Source: Trypanosoma brucei
Lineage: Eukaryota
DNA: 64,000 nucleotides
Direction: 5' to 3'
Assembly (NCBI GenBank): GCA_000002445.1
Contig: CP000071.1
Location: 96,001 to 160,000 of the forward strand
Each line of letters begins with the position of its first letter. The stretch's first letter is position 1. The position numbers are program-made. Below are positions 33,701 through 39,700 of this stretch, piece by piece.

Positions 33701-36700
33701 TAATGCTACGCATTCCGCTCTGTAACTGCATGAGAGTTCCCCTGCTCCGGACTCCTCACCGAGGGACACGGATCCATCAGTCCACAATTCGTAGTGCTTA
33801 CGTCGCGGCGGCTCCTTCCCCCTCCGTGCAAAATGCCGTTCAATCCACTTTTCGGAAGCCCCCCTTTTGACATCGTCAGGGTCATCAGCGCACACAGGCT
33901 TTATCTGCGTGTGAAATAGCGGTCGGCAGCTGTGGCGGAGCGTCGATGTCTCTAGTGGGTGCTCGCGTGGCTCAATGTGGAGGTGGGGGTAGGACCGCAT
34001 GATGCGGGAATGTAGGGCTCTGACTGGGTGTTTGCTGTGGTATACTTCTTCAGCACTGCGCCGCAAACATCCGCTTCGTGACTCACACATCAGCATGAAT
34101 TTCATGCTGTGCACAAGAGTGGCCGTCTTGAGTGGCAGGAGGTTTGCTTCCAGCAGAGAGTCCTCTTTGCGCGTCCCATGCGGTATGCCGGCTATGATGC
34201 AACTGGCTTTGTGTTGTGCTGATGCAAGGAGGTCGCGACTTCGTTTCGAAGCGTCCCAGTACCATACCTCAATGCCATACATGGTGTGTGCCTGTACGAG
34301 TGCTAGATAAAAAGCTCTCAGTACTTGTCGTCTTGGCCCCCATGTAGAAGCTGAGATGGCTGCTATCTGCAGTAGTCGGAAGTCCATCTTGCGTCTCGTT
34401 TCGGCCTCATGTGTTGCCATCCCTTGCAGACACTGGAATGTTACTCCTAGAGAAGCTTCGGTGTCCTGTCAGCTCCTATTCTTTCGCCGTCCAGTTGCAA
34501 TGTAAGGGGGTGGCGCTCTATACACCCGAAGAGTGTGCACTTCGTTTTCGCTACGTTGACAGACATGAAGTACTCTTTTGACCACTGTAACACCACGTTT
34601 AGGCCGCATTGTAGTGTGTGGTTGATGACATCCCTCTCTGTGTGCCTGGCAAGTAGCGTCAGGTCGTATGCAAAGAATCCGTGCTGCAGTAACGGCACTT
34701 CTGCAAGGCGTTGGCTCAACGAGTTCATGACAATAATGAACATGATTGGGCCAAGGACAGTTCCTTGTGGCACTCCTCGCTCAAATGTTCTGCTGTTGGA
34801 AAGCTTCTCCCTGAATCTCACTCTGCCAGTTCGGTTACTCAGAAATGATACGCACCACTTCACAATGTGGGGTGATACCTTCATTCTGTGCATTTCCCTC
34901 GCAATTTTGTCGTGGTCTACTGTATCGAATGCCTTCTCGTAGTCGACAAATACAGCACCCGTAAGAGATTGGTGCGTGGGGCGGCAGAGGGCAGCGCGGA
35001 CGTGCAGGAGTTGTTCGAGCGTTGAGCATCCGGGGCGAAAGCCTGATTGCTGCGGCGTCAGCTGGGACTCAACAGTGTCTCTAAGCCTCGTGGCAATTAT
35101 GCGCTCCATGACTTTGCAGAGACAGCTCGTGAGCGTCACTGGCCTGTAAGAATCGAGGTCCTCCGCCTTTTTTCCGGCCTTCAGGATGGGGATGATAACA
35201 CCAGTCTTCCATGCAGGCGGCACGACTCCCGTTCGTAGGCTGTCATTGAATAGCCTCAGAACAACATTCAGCGCTGTTCTACCGAGATGTTGCAGTGCCT
35301 CGTTGTATAAGCAATCAGGTCCGGCTGCGGATCCACTCGGTAGCAGTTTGATCGATCTCCGTAGTTCAGCCATCGTGATGGGACTGAACTCACTCGCTAT
35401 CGTCTTTATGGGTGCAGGTGGGTGTGAGTCGGGGTGCCTTCTTGCGCGGGACGAGTACAGTTTACTGAACCTCTCAGCTTGACGGTAGTCCGTGATGGCC
35501 GCGTTATCAACAAGTACAGCCGGTGTGGTTAGTGGTCGTGGCGCATATACCTTCTTGACAATGTGCCAACTGCAGTGGTCTGACACTTCATGTCTGGAGC
35601 ATAGCGTGCTCCATCTCTTCTTTGTGGTACGGTCCAGGATCTGCTTACGCGTGGCTACCAACTTTTCCCTTCGGTGGGAGGGTCCGCATCCAGCGATCTC
35701 TTCATCGAGTTTCGGGAGTGTATGTGTCCAATGCGGATGGCGGAGCTCAATTTCTGTTCCAGGGTGTTGACGTTCTTCTCTCTACCAATTTTCCTGCAGA
35801 GCTCGTCAACCTTGAGACGGAAATTCCTCCAGTTAGCTTTTAGCCATGCGTACATGGGCTTTCGAAGCCGCGGGCAACTCAGTGCATCTGTGTCGTCTCC
35901 AACGATAACGTCGAAAAATATGTGATGGCGATCGCTATCGGGAGAATACAGCGATGTCCACGTGTACACTGTGCAATTCCTTGACAGTGTCACATCAGGG
36001 CTGGACTCCCCGTGGTGGCGCGCGTACCTGGTGCACTCACCAGTGTTGCAGACCAGAAACTGGTTGTCAATGCACCACTGTGTGAGGGTTTCACCCTTGG
36101 TATTTGGTGGGCTCGCGCGATCCCATGCCAACGCGTGTGCGTTAGCGTCTGCACCGATGAGCTGGGCACCGTCAGTCGTTAGAAGCGTATCTAGGTCAGT
36201 TGCCGTGAAGGTGTGTTTTGGTGGGATGTATGCCGACGTGACAGTCAGCGCCGTTCCACGTGCAAGGTGAATTATTGCATGCACTTGTTCAATGCGACCA
36301 ACAACGGCTATACCGGTCTCGACTGGTAGGTCCTCCCTCACTAGTATTGATACACCACCTCCTTTGCAGTTACGAGCTATTCCGTGATGTTGGTAGCCAG
36401 CAACGCTAAAGCAAGCCGCCTCTCCAGGCGTCATCCTTGTCTCGCTCAACAGACAAAAGGCGATCCGCTCATCAACAAGGGTTTTGTGGAGTGCTAATCT
36501 CTTTCCTTGAGATAGCCCGGTGCAGTTCCACTGCATCCCTCGCAACGACGGGCCGGGATTCTCTTCCACATCACCGGACAGCAGCATCTTAGTGCGGATG
36601 ATACTGCTGATAGCACGCTGGCACGTGCCCAGGGACCGACAAATGAAAAACGGTGTCCCGGCAAGACGCCGCTGATCCCTGTTCTGTATGATGCCGTAGC

Positions 36701-39700
36701 CGGAGCACAGCAGTGTTCCCCATGAAAGGAACGCTGCTGGCTCTTGGCTTCGCCCGATGATACGGGGTACTGGACCCTGGCACCACGTTGAGGTGGCCGG
36801 CATCGCCAGGGGAAACACAAGCAACCAGATCACACCAAAGAACAAAAGCCGACACAGCTTAACGACATACTCAACGTCAACATGACGATTTCCTGAAGCT
36901 CACAGCAGACCCTGGTGGACAAAATAAAAGAAAAATGCGACTTCGCTACATTTAAGCAAGACGCCGGCGCATCTTTCAGAGATATCAACCGGGAGGAAGA
37001 CTCAGCGGACTGGAAAGACGCCAAAAGCTCGTGGAACGTAGCGAATCCCCTCACGGTACACGCTTTGCTGCTACATAGCTTCAGGAGCATCGTCAACAAC
37101 AGGGCCAACGAAGCTCTGAAAAAGTTCAAAGAGACGCAAGCGACCGGACTCGACACAAACCCCAACATAATAGAGCAGATTAACGAAGCTCGAACAAAAG
37201 CGGCGTGCGCGAGCGACGGTATGTACGATCCCGCAGCAAAGACATGCAAAGCATCACAGGGCAATACAATCACAAAAACGGCAGAATGCACACCAGACAA
37301 AGCCGGAACGAGCATCGGCCGCGACCTGATCTGCCTGTGAGCTTCGACTAACGGAGCGGAATGTACCGGCACACACTTCACGCAGGATCAGATCAGCGTC
37401 GGCAACATCGTAGCAACTGCGTGGGAAAAAACGGTTGCGAAGTGCCCAAAAGCAAACACAGATCTCTCTTTAGACGTGGCAATAGACATCGTGCTAGCAG
37501 CTGTCGCAGCGCAAATCGGTGTAAACTAAAACAGCGCAGCAACAGCGCATACGCTCACGGGTGGAACTTATTCAACGAGTTGCGCCAATGCCGGCAGCAA
37601 CTGCATAGACTATTCGTAACACTACACCGGCAGCACAAAAGGTTTCTACAGCATCCCATGGGCCGCTCAACTGACAGAGGCACGCAACCTTTACAAAATG
37701 TACCAGGAATTTGTTGAAAACAACAAGCGGCTGAAAGCAGAGGTAAAGAAACTAAAAGCAACGATATCAATCAGAACTACTCCGACAACCTCAATAATTC
37801 TCCGGCAATACAAACACGCCAACAGGAGAATCCAGCGGAACTAGGGGTGACGACAAGCCGCAGGTAGAATGTGGAAAGATAACAACGCCAGATAATTGCA
37901 AACCAGATATGGGATGTAAATATAACGAAACTCCTAACAAATGCGAAGAAGATCCTAAAAGCCATGTTGTTCAAGCGAACCAAGAAACTGGAAAGACAGA
38001 TGGGGGTGTAAAATACTTAGAATATGAAATGAAGAATAGATGTGAGGCTGTCAACAGGGATGACCAAAAGAATTGTAAATGGAGAAGAGGGAAAAGAGGA
38101 CGAAGATGACAAGGATAGAGAAGTGCCGAAATGGAAGTTTTCTCATCAATAAGAAAATAGCTCTGATGGCTGCTGCTTTTGTGAGTTTGTTGTTATGACA
38201 ATTTTTAAAAGGATTTTTGCCCGATTTTATAAAATCTGTTATTTGTGATAATTTGACATATTTCTTAATATATGATATATTCTAACACTCTTTGATGAAA
38301 ACCTAAAAATCAGTAGAACTCTTTAAAAATACGTATGAAACTTTTTTACGGGTGTAACTTAGTACGGTGATAAGGTAGGTTAATGATTGCTTTTTCAATG
38401 TATATCCATTTTGGTTTTTTATAGCTATTAGTGATAGCCATATTGTAATGGTAAGTATAATAATAATAATGATAATAATGATAGGAGGGTGTATTGAGTG
38501 TGTATATACTAATTCTAATATTATAATAAATTGCTGTATAATATTGTGCATTTGCACGGCTGAGAATGGTATGTCTTGGTAAAGATTTCCTCGTTCACTC
38601 ACCCAGCATACCACCAAATCGTGCTCTTATGTGGTGCACAAACTTGTAATTTCTCTCTCAGAAAGAGACTTGTGAATATCATAAAGTAGTCACATTGTTG
38701 AAACACGGGTAAACACACGTATAAAAAATGCATATATTCATATATTTAACACATTTTGCGGTCTTATATCGTTTTTAATATCATAGATTGCCTATACTAT
38801 CCAGAGAGACAGCAATTCTCTTTCTAAACGGTTATTTACACGATGCATTTGGAACCTTCTTCAGTGTCAGCACACATATTATTTCCTGCGTCTTTGTAGA
38901 ACTCAAGGATGGTCAACTTATTTTATTCATATTTTAATTCACATATCGGAGGAACACACATTCAACTAAGCGCATGTCCATTAATTCTACCTACAGATAA
39001 TATTTTCAAAAGAAATCAGATGGAGGTATATTTCTTTTTACAGAATCATTTAATAACATATGCCGAAAAGCATGTATACAGTTAAAACAATTCTTGCTCA
39101 ATAAGCAACACGATATGGATATTTTGTCCTGAATCGGGAAATAAACCCATAAAATTACATTTTTACTTTTTGTCAGTTTATATGTGCACCAGCACCTCGC
39201 CATTCCCTCTTTTAAAATTAGATTTTCTAAAATTATTTCATAAATTATGAGAGAAAAGAAGAAAAACAATCTAGATTACCACACACACATACTCTGTCTC
39301 TCTCGTTCACACTATTATCAATTGTTTGATTTATTTAGAAGTGAATTATTGTTATTATTGATATTGTTTTTATTACTATAAAACATATATTGGTTCCTTC
39401 TTACACGCAAAGAGTGCGTCCTAAGATTTTTTCTCTGTAAATAGCACCTTCTCAAAAACTAACAACTTTATATCCCTTAAATTTCTCACCATCTTTATCG
39501 TTATCTCACACATTCACACTACTCTAATTTTCCCCTTTTCAGCTTAATTTCAAATATTGGTATTTCCTGTTTCTTTATTTTCTTAACATTTAGACATCAC
39601 CTTTTTTTGCCTGCATTAATGTCAATAAGGGATAGTATAACAAAATTATTATGGGGAAAAGATAAAGTGAGGAAAACAATCATCACGCGTGATCACTCAG

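What the first reader, a model, noticed from the sequence alone, without database searches (positions are those of the whole stretch)
35655..36845. In-frame 2A-like self-cleaving peptide motif (DVEENPGP) at the N-terminus of the ingi ORF
The first ingi ORF fragment reads '…ISSIIRTKMLLSGDVEENPGPSLRGMQWNCTGLS…'. 'D(V/I)ExNPGP' is the canonical viral 2A ribosome-skipping motif. Functional 2A sequences have been described in trypanosomatid non-LTR retrotransposons (L1Tc in T. cruzi, ingi in T. brucei). The motif is preserved here even though this copy's ORF is otherwise broken.
Basis: partly seen in the sequence, partly recalled or inferred. Interest (0 to 1): 0.5.

Follow-up and report, generated by a model that had tools for sequence, protein, structure and literature searches.

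The report
Known 2A skipping peptide of ingi
The DVEENPGP motif is real, but it is the already published and tested 2A ribosome-skipping peptide that every ingi/L1Tc retrotransposon of trypanosomes carries in front of its endonuclease, here in a decayed ingi copy, so it is ordinary.

Summary
SSIIRTKMLLSGDVEENPGP is encoded on the minus strand at window 36608-36549. The eight-residue core lies at 36572-36549. It is the only NPGP in all six frames, against about 5e-5 strict motifs expected by chance.

It lies in a 5151-bp ingi non-LTR retrotransposon (36811-31661, minus strand). This copy is 95.5-95.7% identical to two Trypanosoma brucei equiperdum ingi copies. The element begins with the Pr77 hallmark. 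Its first ATG (36803-36801) is in frame with the motif, which places the skip site between G84 and P85, just before the AP-endonuclease domain.

A majority consensus of three copies restores one 1657-codon ORF with the 2A at the same place. The window copy is dead. It carries a 49-nt deletion, a 2-nt insertion and a 1-nt deletion, all frameshifts, plus an in-frame 54-nt deletion.

The copy differs from that consensus at about 2% of sites, so an intact 24-nt motif is expected and is not evidence of selection.

The papers read here (Odon 2013, citing Heras 2006) describe this 2A at this position in ingi and L1Tc and report it active in translation assays.

Verdict: already known, low interest.

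The parts
31661..36811 (-). Complete but degenerate ingi non-LTR retrotransposon, 5151 bp, running from CCCTGGCG... to an A9 tail
   Evidence: It is 95.5-95.7% identical over its full length to two T. b. equiperdum ingi copies, and similarity starts and ends at these coordinates. Pfam domains occur in the order endonuclease, RVT_1, RNase_H, C2H2.
36735..36811 (-). Pr77 hallmark: the first 77 nt of the element. The literature describes it as an internal promoter and HDV-like ribozyme in L1Tc
   Evidence: It is 76% identical to the published L1Tc Pr77 oligonucleotide (sequence from PMC1874656). That paper gives 76.6% for ingi/RIME versus L1Tc. Activity was not tested here, and Rfam gives no hit.
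36801..36803 (-). First ATG of the ingi ORF (element nt 9-11), in frame with the 2A
   Evidence: The three-copy consensus gives a 1657-codon ORF from this ATG.
36552..36803 (-). 84-residue leader (M1-G84) that would be released with the 2A at its C-terminus
   Evidence: Translation. The leader is alignable with T. grayi and other trypanosome ingi-like proteins.
36549..36608 (-). 2A-like peptide SSIIRTKMLLSGDVEENPGP. The core DVEENPGP is at 36572-36549, and the predicted skip lies between G84 (36554-36552) and P85 (36551-36549)
   Evidence: The same sequence at the same position occurs in P0002, P0005 and P0013, and P0012 differs only at one upstream residue (IIRAKMLL). The nucleotides are identical in L001 and L002.
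35655..36551 (-). Post-2A reading frame: AP-endonuclease domain, then a premature stop (TAG 35657-35655) caused by the 49-nt deletion
   Evidence: Pfam Exo_endo_phos_2 2.1e-11 and Exo_endo_phos 5.6e-05. The deletion is mapped after 35734.
34447..35661 (-). Reverse-transcriptase segment, cut off from the first segment by the 49-nt deletion and ended by a 2-nt insertion (TC, 34453-34452)
   Evidence: Pfam RVT_1 5e-42; lesions.
32300..34420 (-). RNase H and C2H2 zinc-finger segment. It carries an in-frame 54-nt deletion (after 33751) and a 1-nt deletion (after 32535) that shifts the frame for the last codons
   Evidence: Pfam RNase_H 1.7e-05 (25.5 bits, just below Pfam's 25.8-bit gathering cut-off) and zf-C2H2_4 6.6e-04 (20.6 bits, below the 27-bit cut-off), so both are sub-threshold matches; lesions.

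Best explanation
This is the native 2A-like ('NPGP') translational recoding peptide of the Trypanosoma brucei ingi retrotransposon, present in a degenerate ingi copy on the minus strand. In an intact element, translation starts at the ATG inside the Pr77 hallmark (element nt 9). When the ribosome has made ...KMLLSGDVEENPG and holds Pro-tRNA in the A site, the nascent 2A in the exit tunnel prevents formation of the Gly84-Pro85 bond. An 84-residue leader is released, and translation either resumes at Pro85, giving the endonuclease-RT-RNase H-zinc-finger protein as a separate product, or stops there. The second outcome lowers the yield of that protein. Shown here: the motif, its frame, its position, the identity of the element, its homology across trypanosome ingi-like elements, and the decay of this copy. 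Taken from the literature: that ingi and L1Tc 2A sequences are active in translation assays. Inferred: that this exact variant (MLL instead of the MLV I recall for the tested 'TSR1' clone) is active. Whether this particular copy is ever translated is unknown. If it were, it would yield the leader plus a 298-residue truncated product, P85 to the premature stop, that still contains the whole endonuclease domain.
For: The motif is unique in the window and about 5e-5 are expected by chance. It is in frame with the first ATG of the element and with the downstream Exo_endo_phos domain. The element is a full-length ingi: it is 95.5-95.7% identical to two T. b. equiperdum copies, it has the Pr77 hallmark, an A-tail and the APE-RT-RNaseH-C2H2 domain order, and the three-copy consensus is 5270 nt with one 1657-codon ORF carrying the 2A at codons 78-85. 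The same peptide sits at the same alignment column in T. b. equiperdum and T. b. gambiense proteins. T. grayi proteins carry variants (SGNVEENPGP, CGNAEENPGP), and P0007, whose species I did not establish, carries SGDVEKNPGP. L74, L75, G77, E80, N82 and P85 are invariant. In an exhaustive search, 50 of 83 relatives carry NPGP directly before the '..LRG.QWN' start of the endonuclease. Odon et al. [quoted passage not shown] PMC3894237 argues they down-regulate ORF2 translation.
Against: No activity assay exists for this exact sequence or copy. Heras 2006 and Donnelly 2001, the primary papers, could not be read here. The tested ingi peptide sequence could not be retrieved as text, so the one-residue difference from the tested clone rests on my memory. 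The copy is a pseudogene with three frameshifts, so any function in this copy is doubtful. PMC1874656 reports that the ingi/RIME 5' end did not drive reporter expression in T. brucei, so expression from this copy's own 5' end is uncertain.
Confidence: 0.95

Rival explanations
1. The motif is an inert relic. The sequence is a bona fide ingi 2A by descent, but in this copy it does nothing because the copy is dead and not translated. Its intactness is simply lack of time to decay.
For: There are three frameshifting indels and one in-frame deletion private to this copy. The copy has 90 codon differences from the consensus (35 synonymous, 55 non-synonymous), about 2% divergence, so the chance that 24 nt stay untouched is about 0.6 (arithmetic is mine). 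Sister copies show decay at this very site: L003 has Q62*, E81K and P83T, and L002 has ATG->ATT and a 2-nt insertion upstream. The literature notes that ingi/RIME 5' ends did not drive reporter expression in T. brucei and that ingi/RIME-specific small antisense RNAs are suggested to down-regulate these elements.
Against: This does not conflict with the best explanation of what the motif is. It only concerns this copy. The first 382 codons (ATG, leader, 2A, complete endonuclease domain) are still open, so translation through the 2A is not excluded.
Confidence: 0.8
2. The main role of the motif is translational attenuation ('reduction') rather than separation of two useful proteins. Most ribosomes would terminate at the 2A, which keeps endonuclease/RT levels low in an element that has no ORF1.
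For: PMC3894237 proposes exactly this for single-ORF non-LTR elements. A 2026 preprint reports that most retrotransposon-associated 2A-like peptides fall in a 'reduced protein abundance' class linked to upstream leucines. This peptide has the Leu pair L74-L75, which is invariant among the relatives.
Against: There is no measurement for ingi. Odon 2013 reports high skipping activity for an Ingi-clade element of Aplysia, with more than 97% of the label in separated products. That result favours efficient re-initiation.
Confidence: 0.3
3. The motif is a chance match to D(V/I)ExNPGP or a recently captured viral fragment, unrelated to ingi biology.
For: None found.
Against: About 5e-5 are expected by chance per window. 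The motif is at the homologous column in ingi-like proteins of several trypanosome species and in related non-LTR elements. The flanking DNA is ingi on both sides without a break in similarity.
Confidence: 0.01

Closest known systems
2A-like sequence of T. brucei ingi (Heras et al. 2006; Odon et al. 2013, PMC3708506). From memory: the 'T. brucei TSR1' 2A tested by Donnelly et al. 2001
   Same: Same element family, same position (N-terminal region, directly before the AP-endonuclease domain, within the 40-80 aa range quoted by Odon 2013) and same canonical core DVEENPGP. The peptide is identical in the T. b. equiperdum and T. b. gambiense copies retrieved here.
   Different: Nothing of substance differs. 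From memory only, the tested clone reads ...KMLVSGDVEENPGP, whereas this copy and the three-copy consensus read ...KMLLSGDVEENPGP. This copy's ORF is broken downstream.
2A of T. cruzi L1Tc (Heras et al. 2006)
   Same: It is the homologous element of the ingi clade: the 2A is in frame at the N-terminus of a single ORF, with the Pr77 hallmark upstream (76% identical here) and the same domain order. I take P0073 (...QRQKLLLSGDIEQNPGP...) in the representative search to be the L1Tc-type variant. That attribution is from memory, because the library carries no names.
   Different: The core is DIEQNPGP rather than DVEENPGP, the leader differs, and the host species differs.
Picornavirus 2A (FMDV F2A and relatives; 'NPGP' 2As)
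   Same: The same C-terminal motif GD(V/I)ExNPG|P preceded by a Leu-rich tract. For example, limnipivirus D1 2A1 reads ...MRLKMSGDVEENPGP. I assume the same ribosome-skipping mechanism.
   Different: The picornavirus 2A sits in a viral polyprotein between capsid and replication proteins. Here it sits near the N-terminus of a retrotransposon ORF and releases only a short leader. No sequence relationship outside the roughly 20-residue peptide was looked for or seen here.

Membership tests
2A / 2A-like (NPGP) ribosome-skipping peptides | C-terminal motif D(V/I)ExNPG|P | tested here: met
   DVEENPGP at 36572-36549 on the minus strand. It is the only hit in six frames, with about 5e-5 expected by chance.
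2A / 2A-like (NPGP) ribosome-skipping peptides | A suitable upstream tract of about 10-20 residues. It is not conserved in sequence between 2As but is critical for activity, and is typically Leu-rich or hydrophobic before the G-D | tested here: inconclusive
   The upstream tract is SSIIRTKMLLSG. L74, L75 and G77 are invariant among 10 relatives, and most relatives have an LLL(x)SGD-type tract. Sequence alone cannot prove suitability (Odon 2013).
2A / 2A-like (NPGP) ribosome-skipping peptides | Lies inside an ORF, in frame with coding sequence on both sides | tested here: met
   It is in frame with the ATG at 36803 (77 codons upstream) and with the Exo_endo_phos domain downstream.
2A / 2A-like (NPGP) ribosome-skipping peptides | Demonstrated separation of upstream and downstream products during translation | not testable with these tools
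   Reported for ingi and L1Tc 2As by Heras 2006, as cited in Odon 2013. It has not been measured for this exact variant or copy.
ingi (ingi/L1Tc clade non-LTR retrotransposon of T. brucei) | Conserved 77-79-nt 5' hallmark (Pr77) | tested here: met
   The first 77 nt are 76% identical to the published L1Tc Pr77, and the paper gives 76.6% for ingi versus L1Tc. Three copies share the same first base.
ingi (ingi/L1Tc clade non-LTR retrotransposon of T. brucei) | About 5.2-kb element with one long ORF encoding APE, RT, RNase H and a C2H2 zinc finger | tested here: met
   The copy is 5151 bp. Its two large private deletions (49 nt and 54 nt) remove 103 nt, which brings its length close to the 5270 nt of the three-copy consensus. 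That consensus has a single 1657-codon ORF. Pfam domains are in the expected order; the APE and RVT_1 matches pass Pfam's cut-offs, while the RNase_H and zf-C2H2_4 matches fall just below them.
ingi (ingi/L1Tc clade non-LTR retrotransposon of T. brucei) | 3' poly(A) tail | tested here: met
   There is an A9 run at 31669-31661, where similarity to the other copies ends.
ingi (ingi/L1Tc clade non-LTR retrotransposon of T. brucei) | Target-site duplication flanking the insertion | tested here: not met
   The flanks ...GCTTGTGTTTC| and |GAATGTGGACTT share no duplicated stretch, and the same holds for L001. This is compatible with later recombination between copies or with decay. It does not bear on the 2A.
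ingi (ingi/L1Tc clade non-LTR retrotransposon of T. brucei) | High nucleotide identity to ingi copies in T. brucei genomes | tested here: met
   Identity is 95.5-95.7% over the full length to L001 and L003 (T. b. equiperdum GCA_003543875.1) and 95.8% over 1.1 kb to L002 (T. b. gambiense FN554970).

The most novel reading that the evidence does not exclude
Although this copy cannot make reverse transcriptase, its first 382 codons are still open: ATG, 84-residue leader, intact 2A and a complete AP-endonuclease domain. If the copy is transcribed and translated, 2A skipping would release a free-standing endonuclease from a 'dead' element. The element sits at the junction between a VSG array and the neighbouring non-VSG genes on the other strand, so such an enzyme could nick DNA or help mobilise RIME in trans. 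A second untested possibility is that the conserved leader peptide has a function of its own.
Probability: 0.03. Interest if true: 0.45.

Novelty: already known. Interest (0 to 1): 0.07.

Why it matters
It matters little. The result confirms that a sequence-only reader can recognise a real recoding signal and assign it to the right element. However, the 2A of ingi/L1Tc has been in the literature since 2001-2006 and was extended to many non-LTR clades in 2013. The practical value is as annotation: this stretch of the window is a degenerate ingi copy. The motif should not be read as a viral insertion or as evidence that the copy is active.

Tried and rejected
1. Rfam scan of the element's 5' end (36400-37000) at E<=10 gave only chance-level hits and no HDV-like ribozyme family, so the ribozyme reading of Pr77 rests on the literature.
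2. Heras et al. 2006 (PMC11136212) is not held. Full-text searches for the peptide strings SSIIRTKMLVSGDVEENPGP and SGDVEENPGP, and for DVEENPGP together with brucei, found no trypanosome paper. The exact tested ingi peptide therefore could not be verified.
3. An exact-sequence look-up of the neighbouring PAP2 protein, meant to identify the source assembly, found nothing on record. The organism is inferred only from the 91-98% identity of the ingi protein pieces to T. brucei subspecies entries.
4. A search for a target-site duplication found none.
5. A search for further ingi or RIME copies in the window found none: self-BLAST of the element returns only itself.
6. Chance occurrence of the motif was rejected.
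7. The idea that intactness of the motif in a broken copy signals selection was rejected. About 2% divergence from the consensus makes intactness the likely outcome, and a sister copy has lost the motif.
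Full report
**Observation.** The region 35655-36845 is a mechanical ORF of 396 codons on the minus strand. The core DVEENPGP is encoded at 36572-36549 (minus strand). It is the only D[VI]ExNPGP, and the only NPGP, in the six-frame translation of the whole window. Under the window's base or six-frame residue composition, 4-6e-5 strict motifs are expected. None appeared in 200 shuffles, whereas bare NPGP is expected about 0.4-0.5 times. The motif is therefore real and not a chance match.

**What surrounds it.** The three consecutive minus-strand ORF pieces match Pfam families in the order of an APE-type non-LTR retrotransposon:
- 36845-35655: Exo_endo_phos_2 / Exo_endo_phos
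- 35661-34447: RVT_1 (5e-42)
- 34420-32300: RNase_H and a C2H2 finger; these two matches fall just below Pfam's gathering cut-offs (25.5 vs 25.8 bits, 20.6 vs 27 bits)

A protein search with the first piece returned T. brucei equiperdum and T. b. gambiense entries at 91-96% identity. It also returned entries named 'Tbingi protein' from T. grayi and T. theileri at 53-60%.

I fetched the DNA of three of these loci:
- L001 and L003, from T. b. equiperdum assembly GCA_003543875.1
- L002, from T. b. gambiense record FN554970

The window element aligns to L001 and L003 over its full length at 95.5-95.7% identity, and to the 1.1-kb stump in L002 at 95.8%. Similarity among the copies begins at exactly one base, window 36811 (CCCTGGCGATGCCGGCCACC...), and ends after an A9 run at 31669-31661. 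The element is thus 36811-31661 on the minus strand, 5151 bp.

Its first 77 nt are 76% identical to the published L1Tc Pr77 oligonucleotide. The same paper quotes 76.6% for ingi/RIME versus L1Tc (PMC1874656). No other ingi or RIME copy is present in the window.

**Frame and position.** The first ATG of the element is at 36803-36801 (element nt 9-11). It is in frame with the motif, 77 codons upstream. The 34 bases between 36845 and 36812 that the mechanical ORF adds are flanking DNA, not ingi.

Counting from that ATG, the 2A core is residues 78-85 and the predicted skip site is G84/P85. The endonuclease domain starts a few residues later. A majority consensus of the three full-length copies is 5270 nt. 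It carries a single ORF of 1657 codons from this ATG, with SSIIRTKMLLSGDVEENPGP at the same place.

**State of this copy.** Relative to the consensus, the window copy has these private lesions within the ORF:
- a 49-nt deletion after 35734, bounded by CATTG repeats (frameshift)
- a 2-nt insertion, TC, at 34453-34452 (frameshift)
- a 54-nt in-frame deletion after 33751, bounded by CCGGAGCAG repeats
- a 1-nt deletion after 32535 (frameshift)

It has no private stop codons. It differs from the consensus at 90 codons (35 synonymous, 55 non-synonymous), about 2% of sites. At that level of decay the chance that a 24-nt motif is untouched is roughly 0.6 (my arithmetic).

The sister copies show what decay does at this site. 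L003 has Q62*, E81K and P83T, giving DVEKNTGP. L002 has ATG->ATT and a 2-nt insertion upstream of an otherwise intact 2A.

**Comparative evidence.** In an alignment of ten ingi-like N-termini, the 2A occupies one set of columns, with L74, L75, G77, E80, N82 and P85 invariant. The sequences come from T. brucei subspecies, T. grayi and one further entry whose species I did not establish. The leader's first roughly 25 residues, encoded by Pr77, are also conserved.

An exhaustive HMMER search of 1.84 billion representatives with residues 1-157 found 76 relatives. Pooled with the earlier hits, 50 of 83 carry NPGP directly in front of the '..LRG.QWN' start of the endonuclease. One of these is a ...QRQKLLLSGDIEQNPGP variant, which I take from memory to be the L1Tc type.

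**Literature.** Odon et al. 2013 (PMC3708506) report the following:
[quoted passage not shown] - The L1Tc and ingi sequences were tested and found active.

PMC3894237 argues that in such single-ORF elements the 2A may down-regulate translation of the enzyme-coding part. A 2026 preprint reports that most retrotransposon-associated 2A-like peptides reduce protein abundance. Another survey finds that almost 90% of the Excavata class A 2A peptides, a group making up more than 15% of all class A peptides, are in Trypanosoma.

The primary paper, Heras 2006, is not held. Text searches for the peptide string found nothing relevant. From memory only, the T. brucei peptide tested by Donnelly et al. 2001 reads ...KMLVSGDVEENPGP, one residue different from this copy and from the consensus built here.

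**Mechanism.** In an intact ingi, translation from the ATG inside Pr77 would proceed as follows. The Gly84-Pro85 bond is skipped and an 84-residue leader ending in NPG is released. Translation then either continues from Pro85, giving the endonuclease-RT-RNase H-zinc-finger protein, or terminates, which attenuates its synthesis. The anatomy is shown here, activity comes from the literature, and activity of this exact variant is inferred.

In this copy the reading frame after the 2A ends at 35655, after a complete endonuclease domain. At most, a leader plus a truncated endonuclease protein could be made. Whether the copy is expressed is unknown. PMC1874656 notes that ingi/RIME 5' ends failed to drive a reporter in T. 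brucei.

**Verdict.** It is already known and of low interest. The most novel reading not excluded is a free-standing endonuclease released by 2A skipping from this dead copy next to a VSG array. No evidence supports it, and I put it at about 3%.

Noticed in passing
window 5000-31000 (+) versus 39693-62990 (-): The ingi copy sits between a plus-strand array of VSG genes and minus-strand non-VSG genes. The VSG ORFs are 10153-11676, 16157-17659, 22408-23829 and 29412-30989 (Pfam VSG_B or A-type VSG, some with the VSG C-terminal domain). The non-VSG genes include a PAP2-family ORF at 39693-40691 and a 2451-codon ORF at 55635-62990 with no Pfam hit. The layout looks like the edge of a T. brucei VSG array.
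   Followed up: partly
window ~35734 and ~33751 (minus strand): The two large private deletions of this ingi copy are each bounded by short direct repeats present in the consensus: CATTG for the 49-nt deletion and CCGGAGCAG for the 54-nt deletion. This suggests slippage or microhomology-mediated deletion.
   Followed up: partly
window 36812-36851 and 31600-31660: No target-site duplication flanks this copy, and none flanks L001. The 5' flanks of the window copy and of L001 are both T/G-rich (..GCTTGTGTTTC / ..GTTGTTGTTTCCA), which may reflect insertion-site preference.
   Followed up: no
window 36735-36811 (minus strand): The ingi start codon lies inside the Pr77 hallmark. The first roughly 23 codons of the leader therefore overlap a sequence that the literature describes as both promoter and HDV-like ribozyme in L1Tc. 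Rfam 15 gives no hit at E<=10 on this stretch.
   Followed up: partly
element nt 240-263 = window 36572-36549: From memory, RIME consists of about the first 250 nt and the last 250 nt of ingi. If so, the RIME deletion junction falls within or right next to the 2A codons. No RIME copy was available in the window or the loci to check this.
   Followed up: no
P0046 (314 aa) and P0059 (199 aa): Two unnamed relatives carry three to four tandem 2A-like motifs (for example ...LLLSGDIEENPGP...LLLSGDVELNPGP) within 200-300 residues. Their source organism is unknown.
   Followed up: no
L003 2486-7750; L002 6913-8020: Sister copies show decay at the same site. L003 has Q62*, E81K and P83T (DVEKNTGP). L002 (T. 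b. gambiense) is a 1.1-kb 5' stump with ATG->ATT and a 2-nt insertion before an intact 2A.
   Followed up: yes
window 42767-43618 (-): This 283-codon ORF has a long Asp/Glu-rich run (DDDEDDEDDEDDEDEEEDEEEDEGEDEDEDEED) and no Pfam hit.
   Followed up: no
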